A stretch of DNA of 63,328 bases, counting the filler, from Rhabdomonas costata (Eukaryota), in assembly GCA_019059605.1 (NCBI GenBank). It is 54 parts of 54 records of this genome, joined end to end, with 100 filler letters (N's around TTAATTAATTAA, not from the genome) between each part and the next. Parts side by side here need not be neighbours in the genome. Positions count along the whole stretch, not along the records: positions 15,270 to 16,344 come from JAHMHO010029939.1; positions 16,445 to 17,519 come from JAHMHO010029940.1; positions 17,620 to 18,692 come from JAHMHO010029941.1; 51 more parts are not named here. The stretch is one strand, 5' to 3'. The notes under the pieces are model-generated. The model was not told the origin of the DNA. It saw only the letters and a program-made list of their open reading frames with translations, and searched no databases. Each line of letters opens with the position of its first letter. Position 1 is the first letter of the stretch. The translations under genes and the position numbers were made by a program. Positions 12,809 to 60,339 of the stretch are shown in pieces.

Positions 12809-13471
12809 CCCCCCACACCNNNNNNNNNNNNNNNNNNNNNNNNNNNNNNNNNNNNNNNNNNNNTTAATTAATTAANNNNNNNNNNNNNNNNNNNNNNNNN
12901 NNNNNNNNNNNNNNNNNNNACTGTCGGCCACAAGCTTCTCAACCGACGCTCTACAACTTGGGTAATCTGGCGGCGAGCCCGCTTCCAACATGGGGTGCAT
13001 GGGGCCGGAAGACAGTCGAGGCCATTGCAGCATTGTCAGCATCGATGGTGCTCAAGAACTGCGCTGGCACGGGGCTCGGAACTATGCCCTGTGTGTGAAA
13101 CCGCTCCTCCTGTGAGTCACAACGTTCTGCGCGATGTGTAGGCACAGGTAGACGGGACAGAAGCCAGCTAGAGCAGCCACGACAAGGAACTGACCTGCAG
13201 TGCACCAGCGAGGACGCGCTGGTCAGCAACCGCCTGGTGAGAGTCCGAAAACTTTGGGCCTTCCCAACTCGCAGGACTCCAGATGCTCTCTTTGTTTTTG
13301 TGATACGCGCGCCGTCGCACTTATGTTTTTCTGCCCCCCACCACTCCATCTGCACGATTTTTTGGTCCGTTCTGCTTTGGTTGATTGAGGCTTTTCTCTC
13401 TTTGGTCCTTCTCTGTGCGCTGCCCCGCACTGCCAATGCTGCTCAAGTGCCCCGGGATTCTCTGCCACAAG

Positions 13472-15033: not shown

Positions 15034-15353
15034 GTCTTCTTCGTTTTCTCCCCCACAATTGCTCCACCACTCACCTGTTCTCTCTGAGATCGCCAAAAGG
15101 TTCACAGGCTGTTGTCGCTGTTGTGTTGTAGGGTTTCATGTGTTTCAGGATGCCGCCTCCCCCCCCCCCNNNNNNNNNNNNNNNNNNNNNNNNNNNNNNN
15201 NNNNNNNNNNNNNTTAATTAATTAANNNNNNNNNNNNNNNNNNNNNNNNNNNNNNNNNNNNNNNNNNNNTGTTGGTGTGTTTGGGTGTGGTGTTTCGACA
15301 TGGCGGTGGTTGGGTCATCATCAGAAAGGCACCAACTCCACCTGCCTTGGACG

Positions 15354-16029: not shown

Positions 16030-16489
16030 CTGAGCGGTGAGAGAAAAGAGGCGCAACCACGCACGTGGCTGTTTGACTTTTGGAAAACAAGCAACAATAA
16101 TTTCGGGTCGAATTCCTGCTCTCCGCGATATGAGCGAACCCTCGGACATTTCAATCGCAGCGGACACACCGCGGGAAAGACGGCGACACTAAATGGCGGA
16201 TGACAAGCAGAGGATACTGTGCGGGCAGGACAAGTGCCTGTGACTTCAATTTTGCTCTGGGAGGTGGGCAATCGCTCGCCCCCTGATGAGACACCAGGCT
16301 GGGGTCCACAAAGCTTGCAAGCGGCACAAGTCAAAAAACAAAAANNNNNNNNNNNNNNNNNNNNNNNNNNNNNNNNNNNNNNNNNNNNTTAATTAATTAA
16401 NNNNNNNNNNNNNNNNNNNNNNNNNNNNNNNNNNNNNNNNNNNNGTTTGTTGGGTTGACTATTTAAATTATGCATATATATGTCAATTG

Positions 16490-17479
16490 ATGCTAACAAA
16501 TAAATATATCTATGAACTAATTTCATATATGCATCATGATATAAAAACAATGTTAATCAAATGTGCAACTATGATATTAAATTCTGGATCGACTATTTAT
16601 GGAGGTTTTTGTCGCGATATGCTCTTAGAAACTTATCAAAATAAAAAAGATTTATGTTCAGAAGTATGTCCCTTAGATATAGATATAAAAATGCCATATG
16701 ATCTTTTTGAATTAATATATACTATTTTAAAAGATGATTTATTAAGTGCAAGAGAAAAAAAGATTTTAATTAAAAGTAATGTTTGTTATTCATTTATTAG
16801 ATTATTTACTGAATATAATCATGATAAAGATGACATACAAATTATGAATGTTTCGATTATTCATTTATTTATGGATGATAATAATAAAAATTCTGTATCA
16901 ATAAATATTCATGATGCAAGTTTTTATAATTCTACATGTATACGTACAGTTATTTTATTCAATAGAAAATTTATTAAAATTGATATGACTCGTTCAGGAA
17001 TTGAATCCGATTTTAGTTGTAATTCTTGTTATATATTTAAAAATACATTGTTAGACAATCATCAAACAATGCATATTACATCAGAAGAATTAACTACATT
17101 TTTTAAAACAGAATGTAAATATACATATGACATCAAAGATCGTTTAATATTACATACTAATAGTGAATTTGATGATATTCTTGATATTACATTGCAATTA
17201 TCAAATCGTATTGCAAGATTTATGAATGTAATCGGATATCGATGTATATATTGTAATCGTTTTGTAATTAAATTAACAAGTGATCATGTTATTTATATGA
17301 AATATAAAAATAAACATACATGTTTTTTGTCTTTTGTACATAAACTTAGAAAACGAGCTCAAAAAATGATAGATAAAGGTTTCAAATTAATGATTATTCG
17401 TGAAATTATTGAATTTAAAGACATTGTATGGCCTACAGATTTTGTTTGGTCATGTGATTGTGGATTTAAAAAATATTAG
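16490..17479 (+). CDS. Intronless AT-rich ORF encoding a divergent class II nucleotidyltransferase (CCA-adding/poly(A) polymerase head-like); giant-virus-like
   Basis: About 329 aa with IYGGFCRD, DIDI and SDFSCN, corresponding to the GGxVRD, DxD and RDFTxN motifs. The contig is about 20-25% GC by eye, unlike the host contigs. The start codon is uncertain. Confidence 0.75.
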   Translation: MLTNKYIYELISYMHHDIKTMLIKCATMILNSGSTIYGGFCRDMLLETYQNKKDLCSEVCPLDIDIKMPYDLFELIYTILKDDLLSAREKKILIKSNVCYSFIRLFTEYNHDKDDIQIMNVSIIHLFMDDNNKNSVSINIHDASFYNSTCIRTVILFNRKFIKIDMTRSGIESDFSCNSCYIFKNTLLDNHQTMHITSEELTTFFKTECKYTYDIKDRLILHTNSEFDDILDITLQLSNRIARFMNVIGYRCIYCNRFVIKLTSDHVIYMKYKNKHTCFLSFVHKLRKRAQKMIDKGFKLMIIREIIEFKDIVWPTDFVWSCDCGFKKY

Positions 17480-17949
17480 ATGATCAAACAAAAATTCGAT
17501 CAATACTTGAAAAAAAACCNNNNNNNNNNNNNNNNNNNNNNNNNNNNNNNNNNNNNNNNNNNNTTAATTAATTAANNNNNNNNNNNNNNNNNNNNNNNNN
17601 NNNNNNNNNNNNNNNNNNNTGGGTCTTCCCGAGAACATCAGGAGGAATGAACATGTGCTTGGATTTCTCTCATGGCTTTTTGTTGGGGGGGGGGGCAGAC
17701 TTTTAGTATGCAGTCAGGTGATGCAGTCAAGCGGTCACATGAAAAATTACGATGTCCCAAAAGCTGTGAAGTGACGCAGCTCTGGCGGCCTGTGACTGGA
17801 GGGGCCTCTTTCCCGCCCGGACCCGGAAGTGGGATTTAAGATCGGGCAAATGCAGCCGTGTAGTCGTTACAGTTTAGGTGCAGTGAAAGCCAAAAGATGC
17901 GGTTAAGAATACTAATAAGGGTGAGGAGAACGACGAAGAGGGAGATCCC

Positions 17950-41111: not shown

Positions 41112-42084
41112 GGGAGTACAACGTCCCATAAACAATAGCAACATAAAGACTCAGCAGAAGGACAATGGGTTCCCAGAAAAGGAGTTGCCACGGTCGTAAC
41201 AAAGAAGTCCTCAGCAAAACACGCAGTCGCAGATCCTTCCCCTTGTCAAGCATACAAATGTGACGCTTGCCCGTAACTTCCGTAAGTCGGCGAGCCCTCC
41301 AGCGGAGAAGAACAGGCGCATACGTCTCGGGAAGGGTAAGAAAACCCACAAACAGGACAACTCCCGCAAAGATGGTCAGGTAGCCGATGACCCACTTCCA
41401 GCCCGACGTCATCCCTAGAAACCCTCCCGTGATCGGACCCAATGCTGGGCCCAAGAAGGGTGCGGCGGCAAAGACGGCAACCGCTAGCCCTCGCTCCTTC
41501 GCAGAAAACATGTCCGCAAGCGTCCCGCCCGAATTCACCAAGGGACTGGCACCGAAGAACCCAGCAAGGAACCGGAACACAAGAAGCGTCTCGGTGTTTT
41601 TCGCGGCAATGGTGACCCCTTGCCAGAAGGTGAACAGGGCATACGTGACGATAAAAAGGTTCCGGCGGCCAAGCACTTCCGAGAGGGGAGCCCACAGCAA
41701 GGGTCCGAAGGCGAAGCCAAGGACAAAAAGGGAGACGCCGAGCGTCAAGATCACTGTGGTGGCCGGAAACTGAATCGCAATGGATTGGATGCCGCCTGCA
41801 TACGCGCTCGACGCGAGCGCGACAGATAGCGTAGCAACAGCAACCAATAGGGTGACGTACCATTTGTACGCCCGACTCCAGGTCAGAGCGTTTTCAGCAT
41901 CGTTCGGAAGCCACTCTACCAAGTACGGGTCCTCCTCCGTGCCGGAGCCCGCATACTTGTGGTTCAAGAGCTCCTCGAACGGTGTTTCGTAGAGTTTCCA
42001 TGGGAGCCTGAAAGTCCTGTGCGAACTCTGCGTGAGGGCTGCCATCGAGCCATTCGACTTGCCCGCTTCCAAGTCAGTTTGCAT
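41112..42084 (-). CDS. MFS drug:H+ antiporter (DHA1 family), fungal-type, intronless, 3'-truncated
   Basis: YAGSGTEEDPYLVEWLPNDAENALTWSRAYKW N-terminal motif, GPLLWAPLSEVLGRR (motif A), FRFLAGFFG, GGTLADMF, APFLGPALGPITGG. Confidence 0.95.
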
Positions 42085-42494
42085 TTTGAAAAAGGAGTGC
42101 GAAAATAATGCAGGGACGCCGTGATGCAGAAAGAAAAATCCGAGAATACCATGCGATATGCAAGATGCGGACGCATAACCAAACCCNNNNNNNNNNNNNN
42201 NNNNNNNNNNNNNNNNNNNNNNNNNNNNNNTTAATTAATTAANNNNNNNNNNNNNNNNNNNNNNNNNNNNNNNNNNNNNNNNNNNNGGTGTTGTGTACTC
42301 ACTGTGGTGCATTGTGGTGTGTCCTCTTTTTCTTGTAAGGCAGGTGCCGAAGGGAGGTCTCGCGAAAGCCCGTGACCAGACCCCCATAAGTTCCATTAAT
42401 TAATGCTTTGTGTTCCAGCGCATGTCTCCGTCATTGGACGCATGCAATGTCAGCCAATGCGGTCGTGCTAGCGGTTTGGTGGCTTGTTGATCAG

Positions 42495-49576: not shown

Positions 49577-50512
49577 GTCAGGGCACCGCAAGTTAGGGGC
49601 ACTTGGGGATACCGTACACTTTAAATGTCACCTTTTAGGGTTTAAAGCAACTATACTGCTGTGGGCAGGGACCAGCCCGTTGCTGGTTGTTAGCGGACGA
49701 GTCGAGCTGCATCAGTTCAGGAGTTGAGGCCAGCGGGAACGTGGTGTGGTGCGTTGAATAACGGCTTTATCGCACTATTGGAAAAGAGCATGCACACTCT
49801 CCAGGCGGTAAGAGCGAGCAGCCCCGTTCGGCGTGGTTGGTTTTTTGCAAATACGTTGTGGGTGCGCTCGTAAACCCTCCGCTGCCTGGAGCAAGAAGCC
49901 CCACAAAAGAGATGCGAAAGAGCCGCCCATGGGTGACGCAACCGGCCGAGGGTGAAATTCGGAAAATTCTCATACCCCAATGGCTAGCACGCAGTGTTTC
50001 GGGAGACCTGCTTTTTTGTAGAAAATACCCCACGCTTTGCTTCAGCAAAACCCTGCAAACTTAACTGCTCTAATGCCAACTCTTCTGTGCTGGGGTTCCT
50101 TGTCAGGTTTTGCTCTACGTTCAGCCTCAGGACAAGCAACTGCTCTTGGTCGAGGTATGGCGTCCCCTCCTGCACATCCCCCATATTTGATTTGTTGTTG
50201 TGTTGTTGGACTCCCTCTTTCACTGCTCTTTCCCTGTCCTTTTGGCATTGCCACCTTGACAAAAGTGGTGTTCCAAGAATCGCTTTTTTCTTTTTCTTTT
50301 TGTTGCGGAACATGGTATATCATGGATCATGTAATATATCGATGTGGCGGACACTCCATACCCTTTCACAGTTGCCTTCCCCGGCTCACCCCCCAAGACC
50401 AACACCCAACCNNNNNNNNNNNNNNNNNNNNNNNNNNNNNNNNNNNNNNNNNNNNTTAATTAATTAANNNNNNNNNNNNNNNNNNNNNNNNNNNNNNNNN
50501 NNNNNNNNNNNA

Positions 50513-51268
50513 ACATCAACAATTGATGTTACAAAATTAAAATTAATAGAACAACCGCCGCCTGTAGTTGCAAATAATGAAACTTCAGAACCATCTAGTG
50601 GATTTTTAATTGAAGATAAAACAACTGATTCTGAAGTTCATCCATCAACATCAAATGTTGAAATGCCTATTGAATTAATAAAATTTGTTAAAGACAAATT
50701 ATCACATGAATTTACTGAATTATTTGAAAAACCAATTGAAAAAATAATTGAAGTTCTTAAAGAAAAGACATCTGATGATGTTGTAAAATGGTTCAACAAA
50801 TCACCAAGTAAATTTATTGAATTATTTAAAGAACAAAAACAAAATTTTGAAAAAGCACCAGAAACAGAACCAAATACAACTTCGTCATCTGAAGAAATAC
50901 CTGAACATATTATGAAAGAATTAATGAAAGAAACAACAGATACTTCTGATAATAAAATAGTAGAAGAACATATTACTGTTAAAGAAGAACCTAAACAAGA
51001 TCTTGAACAAATAAGAAAATCAGAAATAACAGAATCCGAAAGTTCAAGTTGTAAAAAACAAAAAACATTATTAAAGAAACGTACTGACAAATCAGATAGT
51101 CCAAGTTTAGTAAAACAACAAACAGAAGAACTTAATTTAATGGCAAAACAAATTGAAAATGATATTGCAACTGTTAACGATATACCAGTAGATAGTGTTC
51201 GTATATCTGAAGCGACTTCTTCAGTTAAATGTAAAAAATCAAAATGTACAAGTAGTACTTCAGAATAA
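50513..51268 (+). CDS. AT-rich intronless ORF, 5'-truncated, E/K/S/T-rich hypothetical protein; giant-virus-like context
   Basis: Open from the contig start for 251 codons, with A/T at nearly all third positions. Confidence 0.8.
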   Translation, partial: TSTIDVTKLKLIEQPPPVVANNETSEPSSGFLIEDKTTDSEVHPSTSNVEMPIELIKFVKDKLSHEFTELFEKPIEKIIEVLKEKTSDDVVKWFNKSPSKFIELFKEQKQNFEKAPETEPNTTSSSEEIPEHIMKELMKETTDTSDNKIVEEHITVKEEPKQDLEQIRKSEITESESSSCKKQKTLLKKRTDKSDSPSLVKQQTEELNLMAKQIENDIATVNDIPVDSVRISEATSSVKCKKSKCTSSTSE

Positions 51269-51270
51269 AT

Positions 51271-51344
51271 TAAATTATATTTGTGATAACAAATATAATT
51301 TATCAATAATATTTGTTAATTATAAAATTAAATTTTATAATTAA
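51271..51344. terminator. Two tandem perfect AT-rich hairpins immediately after the stop codon
   Basis: TAAATTATATTTGT-gata-ACAAATATAATTTA (14 bp, 51271-51302) and TTAATTATAAAAT-taa-ATTTTATAATTAA (13 bp, 51316-51344). Confidence 0.7.
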
Positions 51345-51399
51345 AATCATTCATTTATGCAAATTAATTTTTATATAAAAAATATCGTATGATATCTTA

Positions 51400-51580
51400 A
51401 TGAGTAAAATAACAGATGTTTTCGGGAATATTGTATTTAATAGAAACATACCTATCTTATTAATTCATACAAAATTACCAAGTACATTTTTTATAAAACT
51501 TTCCTTTACAGCTGATAATTCCATTTGGACAATTAACAAATCTGTTTTATCATCATTTATATTAAAAAATAAAATAAACC
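51400..51580 (+). CDS. AT-rich hypothetical ORF, 3'-truncated
   Basis: ATG 131 nt after the previous stop; open to the contig end; same codon bias as the upstream ORF. Confidence 0.6.
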
Positions 51581-51734
51581 CACACCNNNNNNNNNNNNNN
51601 NNNNNNNNNNNNNNNNNNNNNNNNNNNNNNTTAATTAATTAANNNNNNNNNNNNNNNNNNNNNNNNNNNNNNNNNNNNNNNNNNNNGGTTGTTTGTGGTA
51701 AGGGGGCCCACGCCATGTCCGCGCTAACGGGAAG

Positions 51735-57028: not shown

Positions 57029-59519
57029 GCTGCGACCCCTGGCGGATTCCCGCCAGGGTGCGGGGGCACAGACTTTGCTGTGGACACGTTTTTTGTGGAT
57101 AACCAGAAGCCAGAGCAGCCGTAATTTCAAGCGTTACGGGGGAGTACATCCCATTAGACTGGCAGATAGAACTACCTCACCTTTTCCCATTGTTGTTCTT
57201 CAAACTCAGCATTTTGCAAACGTTTCTACATCACTTGCCCCCCCTCATAAACTTGTCAAATTTGTGTGGCTCATTACTAGGAACCAAAAAGAATAAACTT
57301 TCATGCAACTTCTTGCCCCGCCCCCCTCCAAAGAATTTATCGTAACAATAGTTCCAACATTTGCCACACCTCTCACATATCCCGCTGTTATCCCAGAAAA
57401 CGTGTCCGCATGTCCAACCCATCCCCCATTCCCATTCGCTCTCTGGCTCGCCACCAACACAANNNNNNNNNNNNNNNNNNNNNNNNNNNNNNNNNNNNNN
57501 NNNNNNTTAATTAATTAANNNNNNNNNNNNNNNNNNNNNNNNNNNNNNNNNNNNNNNNNNNNGTTTTTTGGTATCCTGCTGAAAACAGGGTTTTATACAG
57601 GTCCCGTAAACAGGGTCCTATCAGAGGCACTGCCTTTTTTCCTCCATTGCATCATGGAGCTTCTGCATTTTGTGCGAGTGATCTTACCGATCAGGGATAT
57701 CGACGGATTGCCCCCACTCCGTGGTGCAATGGCCCGAACTTCTGCAGAACTTCCACTTTTGCTCAGGATCTCTCTTCTCCCTCGTTCTCGTTCTAGGTAG
57801 GAATGTGTATTCCTCTGTGGTTGCTTTTGGTTTGGGCATTGCTGGTTCTTCCGGAGTGTCGATGGGCGCTGGCCCACGAGCTGGATGGAGCCACGATGGA
57901 GCTCCTGACCGCTGCTGCGGCAGAGCTGCTGCCTCAGAGGCCTTCAGTGGGCCAGAACGCGGTTGGCGGAGGGCGGGAGTCTGTTGGCGGGGTTGCAACC
58001 ACTGAGTGACTCTCTTACTGTCCCTCGTTAAGTGCACCGCTTGCCGCTTGCCGCGAAGAAGCCAATCGAAGAGCCCCGACTGGGCTGCGCCGACCTGCTG
58101 TGAAGGCGACGACCTCACGAGGGAGATGGACACATATGATCGCTCGATCCCGGAAACTCCTGTCAGAGGCACGGCTTTGCTTTTGGTTCTGCCTCGGCTT
58201 CACTCGGTGCACCTGTTCCTAAACGCTTTCTTAACTCTGTCTCTTTGCCGGGGAGCATAAGAATACTGAAGAAGGCGATTCTAGAGGTCAGGGGTCACGC
58301 TGAAGATCCCAGAATGTTGGGGAAATGATACTTGGGGTCCCCCTCGTATATTGATAATCGATATTCACTATAATGATATCGCTGTGGACACGTTTATTTG
58401 GATAACTGCGGAAGGCGTGGAAGTTGTGCCAAATTTGGGACGATTTTTTTTGCCCTGGGCGGCAGTTAGGAACAGAGACCACAGATCAAAGAACCCCGTG
58501 CAACGTACAATGCAAAACCAGCAACTAGTGAAAAGTAGCAAAAGGAAAAGACTGAAAACTGTCAACGTGGAACAGGGTGAAGCCGACGCAGGTCTGGGGT
58601 CTTTTGTACAAGACGAACTGGAAGGACAAAATTTGCCNNNNNNNNNNNNNNNNNNNNNNNNNNNNNNNNNNNNNNNNNNNNTTAATTAATTAANNNNNNN
58701 NNNNNNNNNNNNNNNNNNNNNNNNNNNNNNNNNNNNNGGGTGTGGTGGTGGAGATTGTGGAGGGAGGTCGGAAGGAAGCTCCTGAATTACCGGAAGTTGG
58801 AGGGTGATTCTGTGTGCAAGCAAATGCTTCGGCGACACGCTTTTTGGCGGCCAACGTCTGACTACTTTCCTCGTATTCTGCCCTCTCGAGTTTTTGTTGT
58901 TTGTTTTTGTGCTGGGGGCGAGAATTGAAAGGATCAGCGTTGGTTCCTGTGGGGCTCAGGGAGGACGTCCCACGCATTCTCTCTGGCGACTCCGCGGGTA
59001 TCCCAGCAGCGATCGCTGCAGCAGAGGCGAGACCCACCCTTGCTGTGGGAGGGGCCGGGCCCGCCATGGGCGACGATGTTTCGGAAGCGCTCGAGAGGTC
59101 AGGCAACACTCCGTCTCCCCTTGCTTTACGTTTTCCGCTATTCCTTTTTTTTGGACTCTTTCGCCAATGAAAGGCCCCGTTGCCGTGTCCGTGAGTCTCA
59201 GAGCCTGCCTCCCCTTCCCCTCCCTCCCCTCTTCTCAGGGAGGACGTCCGGCATACCTCTGCCGGGCACTTCACGGCAGGTGGAGCCAACCACGGGACCA
59301 CCTCTGTGGCCTCCGCGGCCACCGCCTCTGCCGGAATGCCCTTCATCCCTCTTCCCGGGGTGGTTCTTCCTGTGGTGGCCTGCAGCGCTGTGCCGGCCTG
59401 TCCTCTCGAGTCGGCTCCGTGGCGCACCGAAAGGGCGGAGTGCTGGCCGTGCCCACACTCGGAGCGGTGGAAGCGGCTGCGATGGAAAAAGGTCCGTGGG
59501 CGCGTACATCGCCTCCTAA

Positions 59520-59648
59520 CCCCTGCAAAAACTTCTATTGAAATCCCAGGAGACCCTTTCATCGCCACCTGACCCCCTGCAAAAGCTTCTATTGAAATCC
59601 CAGGAGACCCTTTCATCGCCACCTGACCCCCTGCAAAAGCTTCTATTG
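59520..59648. repeat. 54-bp tandem repeat, about 2.4 copies
   Basis: TTCTATTG recurs at 59533, 59587 and 59641 with near-identical intervening sequence. Confidence 0.9.
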
Positions 59649-60339
59649 TGATCCTGGAAACCGTGCATCGCCAAGTCAACTGCTCATATTCTATTTGCTA
59701 TTTTTGCACACGGTATTGATGGTGTACCCCGTAGTTGAAGACAGAGAAGAAGCGCTGGAGCCTTCCTTTAAAGGAAGGCTCCAGCGCTTCTTCTCTGTCT
59801 TCAACAACCCCNNNNNNNNNNNNNNNNNNNNNNNNNNNNNNNNNNNNNNNNNNNNTTAATTAATTAANNNNNNNNNNNNNNNNNNNNNNNNNNNNNNNNN
59901 NNNNNNNNNNNAAAATTAGACCAAAATTTGGTAGATGGAGGAGCATTTTGTGTTGGGAGAGGATATGGTGAGAGGTCGAGGAGATAGGCCACCTTTTCCA
60001 GCGGGAAGTGAAAGGACGCGGATCCCCACCCCTCCAAGACGAGGTAATTTGCCAGAAATGCCACATCAGAGAGGCATATAAAGTGATCTGGCTTTACCGT
60101 TGCAAGCTCAGTGCTGGAGGAAGCGAAAGCTCCGGAGCTACCTAACCTGGCACGTTTCTACTTCGGGATCCCAGCGCATGCGCGCTGGCCCAACATAAGA
60201 GCCAGAAGATTGGCGGAAAGTCTAATGGATCGAAACATCTAAACGGAGAAAGAAATTCAACGTGACAAAGAAAGAGCTACTGGAGACGTGGCATCATGGG
60301 CGTATTTTTGAGTCGAATTTGCGGTGCAATATCATCTGT

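What the first reader, a model, noticed from the sequence alone, without database searches (positions are those of the whole stretch)
16445..17519. Foreign AT-rich contig with a divergent class II nucleotidyltransferase: candidate giant-virus gene in a protist assembly
Seen: the contig is about 20-25% GC by eye against roughly 50% elsewhere, and one intronless ORF of about 329 aa nearly fills it. The ORF has GGFCRD, DIDI and DFSCN motifs, a CxxC and a C-terminal RAQKMIDKGF segment. Known: GGxVRD, DxD and RDFTxN define the head and neck of CCA-adding/poly(A) polymerase enzymes. Inference: the templating motifs are degenerate and the spacing is long, so this is not a normal cellular CCA enzyme. 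That layout and the I/N/K/Y-rich composition fit Nucleocytoviricota-type nucleotidyltransferases. With contig 50512-51586 it suggests an undescribed giant virus infecting, or endogenised in, this probably euglenid host, possibly with its own RNA-tailing enzyme.
Basis: partly seen in the sequence, partly recalled or inferred. Interest (0 to 1): 0.85.

Follow-up and report, generated by a model that had tools for sequence, protein, structure and literature searches.

The report
Orphan nucleotidyltransferase-like gene on foreign AT-rich contig
A short, very AT-rich DNA fragment in a mixed, amplified eukaryote assembly carries one intact gene with no detectable relatives; it shows weak signs of an RNA-tailing type enzyme and may come from a large virus, but that origin is not shown.

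Summary
Contig 16445-17519 is 22.8% GC, against 43-59% for 52 of the other 53 contigs. A 329-codon ORF (16490-17479, +) fills it, and all the cited motifs are present.

The gene is real: the open frame is 344 codons, against at most 160 in 500 shuffles.

No relative was found in Pfam, NCBIfam, PHROGs, PADLOC, PDB sequences, 1.84 billion representative proteins, IMG/VR, metagenome, prokaryote-genome, phage or plasmid collections.

A nucleotidyltransferase (NTase) head domain is weakly but consistently indicated:
- A profile of the Bacillus phage G gp199 family matches motif A and a DFSxN motif collinearly (15.5 bits; 0 of 3001 shuffles reach it).
- Language-model neighbours are all NTase families (Gad2, PolyA_pol, NTP_transf_2, giant-virus poly(A) polymerase).

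The RRD and EDxxR signatures of CCA-adding enzymes are absent. Both structure models were unusable.

Giant-virus origin is plausible. The DNA is AT-rich and gene-dense, and two perfect AT hairpins follow a stop codon on sister contig 50512-51586. It is unproven: there is no hallmark gene, no viral homologue and no AAAATTGA promoter.

A euglenid host is not supported. The one contig tested for taxonomy is fungal-like. No junction with host DNA exists.

Verdict: an interesting orphan gene with modest evidence.

The parts
16445..17519 (.). AT-rich contig (1075 bp, 22.8% GC), one of two such contigs among 54
16445..16457 (+). 13-nt G/T-only run at the contig start, probably an amplification-primer remnant and not native sequence
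   Evidence: 37 of 54 contigs start with a G/T-only run of at least 7 nt; the internal frequency of such 7-mers is 2%
17510..17519 (+). 10-nt A/C-only run at the contig end, probably the complement of the same kind of primer
   Evidence: 40 of 54 contigs end with an A/C-only run of at least 7 nt
16490..17479 (+). ORF of 329 aa plus TAG stop (protein P0001). Alternative starts are M14 (16529) and M21. The match to gp199 begins at residue 14.
16601..16618 (+). GGFCRD (residues 38-43), equivalent to the GGxxRD helix of class II NTase motif A
   Evidence: G, G, R and D match invariant or near-invariant columns of the gp199 family
16640..16654 (+). NKKDL (51-55). In the ungapped alignment this sits where the family has N-D-x-D, so the first catalytic Asp would be Lys52.
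16673..16687 (+). LDIDI (62-66), the alternative and chemically more plausible metal-binding DxD strand. It lies 9-11 residues later than in relatives, after a CSEVC insertion.
   Evidence: BLASTP to P0032 aligns D63/D65 with the family DxD using an 11-residue gap
17006..17023 (+). SDFSCN (173-178), aligned to the family's a-D-Y-T-I-N (motif B core). The two Arg of RRD are replaced by E-S.
   Evidence: second collinear HMM piece, residues 152-195 to HMM positions 81-124
17129..17221 (+). DIKDRLILH ... FDDILD ... RIARF (214-244). These are possible motif C/D and neck equivalents by eye only. The templating Arg of EDxxR is absent. No alignment tool established this match.
   Evidence: for positions; the resemblance is my own reading; searches did not align this part
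17243..17461 (+). Cys/His-rich C-terminal part (CIYC 252-255, HTC 276-278, CDC 322-324), a possible metal-binding module. It includes RAQKMIDKGF (289-298).
   Evidence: no family match
17440..17493 (+). Imperfect inverted repeat (19-nt arms, 84% complementary, 16 nt apart) spanning the stop codon
   Evidence: not above chance on its own (10 such pairs in the contig)
50512..51586 (.). Second AT-rich contig (24.2% GC), with the same composition class and the same kind of primer-like 3' end
50513..51268 (+). 3' part of an ORF, open at the contig start (251 codons, E/K/S/T-rich), ending in a TAA stop. No relatives found.
51271..51302 (+). Perfect 14-bp AT hairpin with a 4-nt loop, starting 3 nt after the stop codon
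51316..51344 (+). Second perfect hairpin, 13-bp stem with a 3-nt loop
51400..51586 (+). Start of a further ORF on the same strand (62 codons, runs off the contig)

Best explanation
Contig 16445-17519 is a fragment of a gene-dense, about 23% GC genome that is not the bulk organism. It was physically present in the amplified sample. The most likely source is a large DNA virus: a Mimiviridae-like giant virus first, a phage second.

Its single gene encodes an orphan protein. The N-terminal half is a highly divergent polymerase-beta-type nucleotidyltransferase head of the class II kind (PolyA_pol/CCA-adding/Gad2-like).

Inferred mechanism:
- The GGFCRD helix binds the NTP triphosphate.
- Asp63 and Asp65 on the LDIDI strand, plus a third carboxylate (perhaps Asp165 in KIDMT), hold two Mg2+ ions.
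- D174-F-S-x-N178 contacts the ribose.
- A nucleotide is added to a 3'-OH, probably of an RNA (tRNA-end repair or RNA tailing).
- The RRD and EDxxR residues that make CCA-adding enzymes specific are missing, and the tRNA-binding body/tail is replaced by a Cys/His-rich segment. Substrate and nucleotide specificity are therefore unlikely to be those of a CCA enzyme.

Shown: the foreign composition, the real ORF, the lack of relatives and the motif-level match. Inferred: the fold, the catalysis, the substrate and the viral source.
For: Foreign and real:
- 22.8% GC against 43-59% for 52 other contigs.
- 344-codon open frame against a maximum of 160 in 500 shuffles.
- GC3 of 11%.
- The contig carries the same primer-like ends as the other contigs, so it comes from the same amplified material.

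NTase head:
- The only tblastn hit in 2.3 Gb of phage DNA is the phage G gp199 'tRNA nucleotidyltransferase' (E=8).
- Pairwise BLASTP gives 31% identity over residues 14-64.
- An HMM of 23 gp199-family and CCA proteins scores 15.5 bits (E 4.2e-7 for one comparison). It has two collinear pieces covering motif A and DFSxN. None of 3001 shuffles reaches 15.5 bits; the best reaches 12.0.
- hhalign gives E 3e-4.
- Atlas feature neighbours: Gad2-bearing viral clusters at 0.95. With those removed: PolyA_pol 0.89, NTP_transf_2 0.86, giant-virus Poly_A_pol_cat 0.81, NTP_transf_6 0.80. Eight of the ten best hits with a family share a family or clan.
- Gad2 is predicted to have a nucleotidyltransferase domain (bioRxiv 10.1101/2023.05.01.538930, passage read).
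- The ordered motif triple occurs in 0 of 200,000 shuffles.

Virus-like context:
- 92% coding on this contig.
- On the sister contig, two same-strand genes lie 131 nt apart.
- Two perfect 14- and 13-bp AT hairpins lie right after the stop codon. Only 1 of 1000 contig shuffles has any perfect stem of at least 12 bp.
- There is no T-run, and 0 intrinsic-terminator matches were found.
- Mimiviridae end transcripts at such palindromes and are more than 70% AT (PMC4402537, passages read).
- Giant viruses are known to carry tRNA nucleotidyltransferases (Tupanvirus, PMC5829246, passage read).
Against: No significant homologue exists anywhere:
- Pfam PF01743 and every other model give nothing at E<=10.
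- phmmer against 1.84 billion proteins gives nothing at E<=0.001.

The gp199 family was picked from an E=8 database hit, so its single-comparison E-value is post hoc. Multiplied by about 25,000 families it is roughly 0.01.

hhalign probability is only 39% and covers 44 columns.

A global test on 25 conserved columns is marginal: 11 identities, and 14 of 300 shuffles reach 11 or more.

In the ungapped alignment the first catalytic Asp is Lys52.

Both AlphaFold models are unusable: pLDDT 34.6 without an alignment, and 45.6 even with the gp199-family alignment.

The Atlas recognition value of 1995 is below the 2300 level that 91 in 100 proteins of known families reach.

Evidence on viral origin:
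- No hallmark gene is present.
- No relative was found in IMG/VR.
- AAAATTGA is absent upstream of either start and occurs only inside the ORF at 16976.
- The nearest feature clusters are labelled Uroviricota, not Nucleocytoviricota.
- The assembly is demonstrably mixed (fungal-like MFS contig), so any contaminant is possible.
Confidence: 0.4

Rival explanations
1. The gene and fold are as above, but the source is a tailed phage (possibly a jumbo phage) or an AT-rich bacterium living with, in or as prey of the sampled cell. The protein would be a member of the phage short CCA-like/Gad2-like NTases, used for tRNA repair or for counter-defence.
For: The only sequence-level match is to the 292-303-aa phage G gp199 family, which is similar in length to P0001.

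The nearest Atlas clusters are 86-95% viral with Uroviricota the commonest label, and 25-38% of members carry Gad2.

An ATG directly follows the TAG stop (17480), as in operons.

The assembly is mixed.
Against: No relative was found in 50,697 phage records beyond the E=8 hit, nor in IMG/VR, nor in 185,579 prokaryote species genomes.

I see no Shine-Dalgarno-like purine run before any of the three starts (read by eye).

The hairpins lack a G+C stem and a T-run, and 0 terminator matches were found.

23% GC is lower than most phages (recalled, not tested).

The 13 codons after the TAG are not significantly open.
Confidence: 0.2
2. The AT-rich contigs come from a compact AT-rich cellular or organellar genome in the sample: a plastid or mitochondrion of the main organism, a nucleomorph, a microsporidian, or another AT-rich eukaryote. 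The ORF is a fast-evolving lineage-specific gene of that genome.
For: Organelle and reduced eukaryotic genomes are often 20-30% GC, gene-dense and rich in orphan ORFs (established knowledge, recalled).

Plastid genes carry 3' inverted repeats (recalled).

Two of 54 contigs of one size class are AT-rich, which fits an abundant organelle as well as a virus.

No viral homologue was found.
Against: No organelle or cellular gene, tRNA or rRNA lies on either contig.

Trp is encoded by TGG twice, with no in-frame TGA. All five Gln are CAA/CAG, with no in-frame TAA/TAG. There is therefore no sign of mitochondrial, mollicute or ciliate codes.

There is no match to any deposited organelle ORF among 1.84 billion representatives.

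The NTase-like signature and the viral feature neighbours fit a virus better.
Confidence: 0.2
3. The NTase resemblance is a coincidence of short motifs in a compositionally biased orphan protein. The protein has another fold and function, whatever genome it comes from.
For: No curated model recognises it.

hhalign probability is 39%.

The global conserved-column test is marginal.

Forcing the family alignment on AlphaFold did not give a confident NTase fold.

The key residues are missing: the RR of RRD, the R of EDxxR, and the first Asp in the ungapped alignment.

The Atlas warns that a third of shuffled proteins also get ten out of ten hits from one family.
Against: Two different methods point to the same superfamily.

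The matches are collinear.

The motif triple occurs in 0 of 200,000 shuffles.

An Atlas first hit of 0.95 is reached by about 1 in 100 shuffled proteins.
Confidence: 0.25

Closest known systems
Bacillus phage G gp199 family of short (about 295 aa) class II tRNA nucleotidyltransferase/poly(A) polymerase-like proteins (Pfam PF01743 head)
   Same: Similar length. The N-terminal helix and the GG[FY]xRD motif align at 31% identity over about 50 residues. A D-[FY]-[ST]-x-N motif is collinear.
   Different: P0001 is not detected by PF01743. The family's N-D-x-D is N-K-K-D in register, or the DxD is displaced by a 9-11 residue Cys-containing insertion. The distance from motif A to motif B is about 40-50 residues longer. 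The C-terminal half is not alignable and is Cys/His-rich.
Canonical class II CCA-adding enzymes of bacteria and eukaryotes
   Same: Motif A helix GGxxRD and an hDhDh strand; a D-F-[ST]-x-N core of motif B. Motif definitions come from PMC7947759 (passages read) and from my own recall of the exact consensus strings.
   Different: RRD is E-S-D. The templating EDxxR/DDxxR is at best D-D-I-L-D, without the Arg. There are no PolyA_pol_RNAbd, HD or tRNA_NucTran2_2 domains of the kind seen in P0034. The protein is 329 aa against about 400-450.
Gad2 (Gabija anti-defence protein 2) and its phage relatives, Pfam PF26128
   Same: These are the nearest clusters in language-model feature space (0.95; 22 of 30 hits fall in this set). 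Gad2 is a phage protein predicted to have a nucleotidyltransferase domain.
   Different: There is no sequence-level match: tblastn against the phage collection gave only gp199. The PF26128 model is not in the local Pfam copy, so membership could not be tested. Gad2 is 400 aa and acts in bacteria. The list of Gad2 homologues is in supplementary tables that were not available.
Mimiviridae genome organisation (AT-rich, hairpin-terminated transcripts) and giant-virus poly(A) polymerase (PF19244/PF21649)
   Same: More than 70% AT. Perfect palindromic hairpins lie directly after a stop codon on the sister contig. Giant-virus poly(A) polymerase clusters appear among the feature neighbours at 0.80-0.81.
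   Different: There is no Pfam match to PF19244. There is no AAAATTGA early promoter upstream. No homologue was found in any giant virus. P0001's own 3' end has only an imperfect repeat.

Membership tests
Class II CCA-adding enzyme / poly(A) polymerase head (Pfam PF01743 PolyA_pol) | Match to the family HMM at or above the gathering score (23 bits) | tested here: not met
   hmmscan at E<=10 lists only Fer4_21 at E=4. NCBIfam gives nothing.
Class II CCA-adding enzyme / poly(A) polymerase head (Pfam PF01743 PolyA_pol) | Motif A: GGxxRD helix followed by the metal-binding DxD | tested here: inconclusive
   GGFCRD is present and aligned. In register the DxD is K52-K53-D54. LDIDI at 62-66 aligns with the DxD only if an 11-residue gap is allowed.
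Class II CCA-adding enzyme / poly(A) polymerase head (Pfam PF01743 PolyA_pol) | Motif B: RRD followed by [FY]-T-x-N | tested here: not met
   The sequence is E-S-D-F-S-C-N (172-178). D, F, S/T and N are kept, but both Arg are absent. The motif definition is taken from PMC7947759 and from recall.
Class II CCA-adding enzyme / poly(A) polymerase head (Pfam PF01743 PolyA_pol) | Motif D: amino-acid template EDxxR/DDxxR | tested here: not met
   The only candidate is D228-D229-I-L-D232, with no Arg. No tool aligned this region.
Polymerase-beta-like nucleotidyltransferase fold (superfamily level) | NTase core fold with three carboxylates on adjacent strands | tested here: inconclusive
   AlphaFold2 gives pLDDT 34.6 for the single sequence and 45.6 with the gp199-family alignment. 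The feature neighbours are all NTase families.
Gad2 (PF26128) | Match to the family model | not testable with these tools
   PF26128 is absent from the local Pfam library. The Atlas feature score is 0.95 to clusters in which 25-38% of members carry it.
Nucleocytoviricota genome fragment | Hallmark genes (major capsid protein, PolB, A32 ATPase, VLTF3, RNA polymerase) in the same genome bin | not testable with these tools
   No whole assembly is held. None of the three ORFs on the two AT-rich contigs matches any family.
Nucleocytoviricota genome fragment | Homologues of the gene in known giant viruses | tested here: not met
   No relative in IMG/VR. No phmmer hit in 1.84 billion representatives.
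Mimiviridae-type gene expression signals | Palindromic hairpin at the 3' end of genes ('hairpin rule') | tested here: met
   In the one complete gene 3' end with an intergenic region (contig 50512-51586), perfect 14-bp and 13-bp hairpins start 3 nt after the stop. For P0001 only an imperfect repeat spans the stop. This feature is not specific to the family.
Mimiviridae-type gene expression signals | AAAATTGA early promoter upstream of start codons | tested here: not met
   There are 5 matches in the window (3.8 expected). The only one on an AT-rich contig is inside the ORF at 16976. Only 45 nt and 131 nt of upstream sequence are available.

The most novel reading that the evidence does not exclude
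The two AT-rich contigs are fragments of an undescribed Mimiviridae-like giant virus that was replicating in, or attached to, the sampled eukaryotic cell. P0001 founds a new, very divergent branch of class II-like nucleotidyltransferases. It has a displaced, Cys-flanked metal-binding strand and a Cys/His-rich C-terminal module in place of the tRNA-binding body. It would be a viral RNA 3'-end tailing or repair enzyme with a specificity unlike CCA-adding enzymes.
Probability: 0.25. Interest if true: 0.55.

Novelty: new variant of a known kind. Interest (0 to 1): 0.3.

Why it matters
If the low-GC fraction of this assembly is a giant virus, it would give a virus-host (or virus-cell) association for a poorly sampled eukaryote. 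It would also give a new, sequence-orphan branch of RNA nucleotidyltransferases that could be tested biochemically.

As it stands the value is mainly practical:
- The assembly is mixed. It contains a fungal-like contig, primer-tagged amplicon ends and AT-rich foreign contigs.
- AT-rich contigs in it should be binned and classified before any are assigned to the organism.

Giant-virus sequences in Euglenozoa are already documented: Bodo saltans virus, and endogenous Asfuvirales elements in Euglena gracilis (PMC12455990). The host-range claim alone would therefore not be a first.

Tried and rejected
Searches with P0001 that found nothing:
- Pfam, PHROGs, NCBIfam, PADLOC.
- PDB sequences: only NsrQ at E=1.7.
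- Word-indexed search of 5.8 billion proteins, restricted to proteins of 180-576 aa.
- phmmer against 1.84 billion representatives.
- IMG/VR, prokaryote genomes, JGI metagenomes.
- Plasmids by tblastn.

Searches with the sister contig's ORFs that found nothing:
-. Only sub-threshold noise appeared, for example TagF at E 0.05-0.19.

Whole-window scans:
- Rfam found 0 families.
- ARAGORN found 0 tRNAs.

Structure:
- Single-sequence AlphaFold2 gave pLDDT 34.6.
- AlphaFold2 with P0001 aligned to 23 gp199-family proteins gave pLDDT 45.6. That design is circular in any case.
- No fold search was run because both models are too poor.

Global alignment test of conserved columns: marginal. MAFFT mis-paired DFSCN, so I do not lean on it.

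- The PF26128 model: not in the library.

Host identity:
- Ten long ORFs from GC-normal contigs were scanned. Only two have families (WD40 repeats, MFS transporter).
- The MFS ORF was then searched.
- I did not test a euglenid origin in any other way.

Alternative genetic codes were considered and rejected. The ORF is intact under the standard code, uses TGG for Trp and has no in-frame stop.
Full report
**What the window is**

The window is not one locus. It is 54 contigs of 1067-1077 bp, evidently sorted by length, joined by N-TTAATTAATTAA-N spacers.
- 37 of 54 contigs begin with a run of at least 7 G/T-only bases, and 40 of 54 end with a run of at least 7 A/C-only bases. The internal frequency of such 7-mers is 2%.
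- I read these as remnants of quasi-random G/T-only amplification primers. The attribution to that kind of kit is from memory, not from a tool.
- Both AT-rich contigs carry such ends, so they were in the same amplified material as the rest.
- Most GC-normal contigs have no long ORF. Of ten long ORFs scanned, only two have families: a WD40 repeat protein and an MFS transporter.
- The MFS fragment is 56-60% identical to basidiomycete fungal transporters (only proteins of 628-2000 aa were searched).
- The assembly is therefore mixed, and a euglenid host is not supported by anything I could test.

**The observation**

Contig 16445-17519 is 22.8% GC and contig 50512-51586 is 24.2%. The other 52 contigs are 43.3-58.8%.
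- A single frame is open over 344 codons. From ATG 16490 to TAG 17477-17479 it gives 329 aa.
- In 500 dinucleotide shuffles the longest ORF averaged 64 codons and never exceeded 160, so this is a real gene.
- GC3 is 11%.
- The protein has 14 Cys, several of them in pairs.

**Relatives**

None were found. The following all returned nothing significant:
- Pfam, PHROGs, NCBIfam, PADLOC and PDB sequences.
- The 5.8-billion-protein word search.
- phmmer against 1.84 billion representatives.
- IMG/VR, prokaryote genomes and JGI metagenomes.
- Plasmids.

The three ORFs of the two AT-rich contigs are all orphans.

**Is it a nucleotidyltransferase?**

Sequence evidence:
- The sole tblastn hit in the phage collection (E=8) is Bacillus phage G gp199, annotated tRNA nucleotidyltransferase.
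- Pairwise, residues 14-64 align with gp199 residues 5-51 at 31% identity.
- I collected 33 relatives of gp199, all carrying PF01743, and aligned 23 of them.
- hhalign of P0001 against this alignment gave E 3e-4 but only 39% probability over 44 columns.
- An HMM of the alignment, run without filters, scored P0001 at 15.5 bits. It matched in two collinear pieces: residues 14-61 on motif A, and 152-195 on the strand plus the a-D-Y-T-I-N motif, which aligns to SDFSCN.
- None of 3001 shuffled or reversed versions reached 15.5 bits; the best reached 12.0.
- Because the family was chosen from a weak database hit, this is suggestive and not proof.
- A global test on 25 conserved columns was marginal.

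Language-model evidence, independent of alignment:
- The protein Atlas put P0001 nearest to viral clusters in which 25-38% of members carry Gad2, at score 0.95.
- With Gad2 clusters excluded, the nearest named clusters were PolyA_pol (0.89), NTP_transf_2 (0.86), giant-virus Poly_A_pol_cat (0.81) and NTP_transf_6 (0.80), all NTase-fold families.
- Gad2 is itself a predicted nucleotidyltransferase.

Structure:
- Both structure predictions failed, with pLDDT 34.6 and 45.6, so the fold is not confirmed.

I put the NTase-head reading at roughly 70%.

**Which residues?**

- In the ungapped alignment the family's N-D-x-D falls on N51-K-K-D54, which would leave one catalytic Asp.
- BLASTP to the more distant member P0032 instead opens an 11-residue gap and aligns the DxD with D63/D65 of LDIDI.
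- LDIDI has the classic hydrophobic-Asp-hydrophobic-Asp-hydrophobic strand pattern, and a Pro-helix follows it as in the relatives. I favour it, with CSEVC as an insertion.
- The Arg pair of motif B (RRD) is E-S, and the templating Arg of motif D (EDxxR/DDxxR, as defined in PMC7947759) is missing.
- The enzyme should therefore not be filed as a CCA-adding enzyme. It is at most 'class II-like'.

**Where does it come from?**

For a large DNA virus:
- Extreme AT content.
- 87-92% coding density.
- Two same-strand genes 131 nt apart on the sister contig.
- In that 9.9% GC spacer, two perfect hairpins (14-bp stem at 51271-51302, 13-bp stem at 51316-51344) begin 3 nt after the stop codon.
- Only 1 of 1000 shuffles of the contig, and 10 of 1000 shuffles of the spacer, contain any perfect stem of at least 12 bp.
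- The hairpins are not bacterial intrinsic terminators: there is no G+C stem, no T-run and 0 matches.
- Mimiviridae use exactly such sequence-unspecific palindromes to end and polyadenylate transcripts, and are more than 70% AT (PMC4402537).

Against a giant virus specifically:
- No hallmark gene and no viral homologue.
- No AAAATTGA upstream of either start.
- The nearest look-alikes are phage-labelled.

Compact AT-rich cellular or organellar genomes cannot be excluded. The codon usage, however, shows no alternative code, and no cellular gene is present.

My odds are: giant virus about 0.4, phage or AT-rich bacterium about 0.2, organelle or compact eukaryote about 0.2, and the rest unknown. 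There is no evidence for integration, since the contig ends are primer-like and not host sequence.

**Comparison and novelty**

- The closest known proteins are the short phage gp199-type class II NTases and, in feature space, Gad2-like phage NTases.
- P0001 differs by the displaced or degenerate DxD, the missing RRD and EDxxR, a spacing of about 110 residues between motifs A and B, and a Cys/His-rich C-terminal third.
- Giant viruses with tRNA nucleotidyltransferases are known (Tupanvirus, PMC5829246).
- Giant-virus sequences in Euglenozoa are already published (PMC12455990).
- The finding is a sequence-orphan variant of a known enzyme kind on an unplaced foreign fragment. It is worth a binning and structure follow-up, but it does not carry the 0.85 interest first assigned.

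**Limits**

- No assembly is held.
- PF26128 is not in the local Pfam copy.
- Supplementary tables listing Gad2 homologues could not be read.

Noticed in passing
window 1-63328: The window is a concatenation of 54 contigs of 1067-1077 bp, separated by N-TTAATTAATTAA-N spacers. Neighbouring 'contigs' are not genomic neighbours.
   Followed up: yes
ends of most contigs, e.g. 10573-10602, 15270-15295, 50400-50411: 37 of 54 contigs start with G/T-only runs and 40 of 54 end with A/C-only runs (at least 7 nt). These look like remnants of quasi-random G/T primers from whole-genome or whole-transcriptome amplification. They are untrimmed and not native sequence.
   Followed up: partly
window 41113-42186 (-): A whole-contig ORF (358 aa) is an MFS transporter, 56-60% identical to basidiomycete fungal 'multiple drug resistance' transporters. 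It suggests a fungal component or contaminant in the assembly.
   Followed up: partly
window 11918-12817 (-): An ORF of WD40 repeats with a 126-bp tandem periodicity at the DNA level (5.2 copies, 74% matches). This is the only other GC-normal contig in the window with a clear protein family.
   Followed up: partly
window 58738-59697 (-): A 320-codon open frame containing a 54-bp tandem repeat (2.6 copies, 95% matches) and repeated peptide units. It has no Pfam family.
   Followed up: no
window 17477-17519: An ATG directly follows the TAG stop of the ORF. The frame stays open for 13 codons to the contig end. This may be the start of the next gene with zero spacing, but it is not significant on its own.
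   Followed up: no
window 16976-16983: The only exact AAAATTGA (Mimivirus early-promoter octamer) on an AT-rich contig lies inside the ORF, not upstream of a start codon.
   Followed up: yes
protein P0034: The precomputed Pfam list for this canonical CCA-adding enzyme includes PF26128 (Gad2) beside PF01743, hinting that the two models overlap. PF26128 is missing from the local Pfam library.
   Followed up: partly
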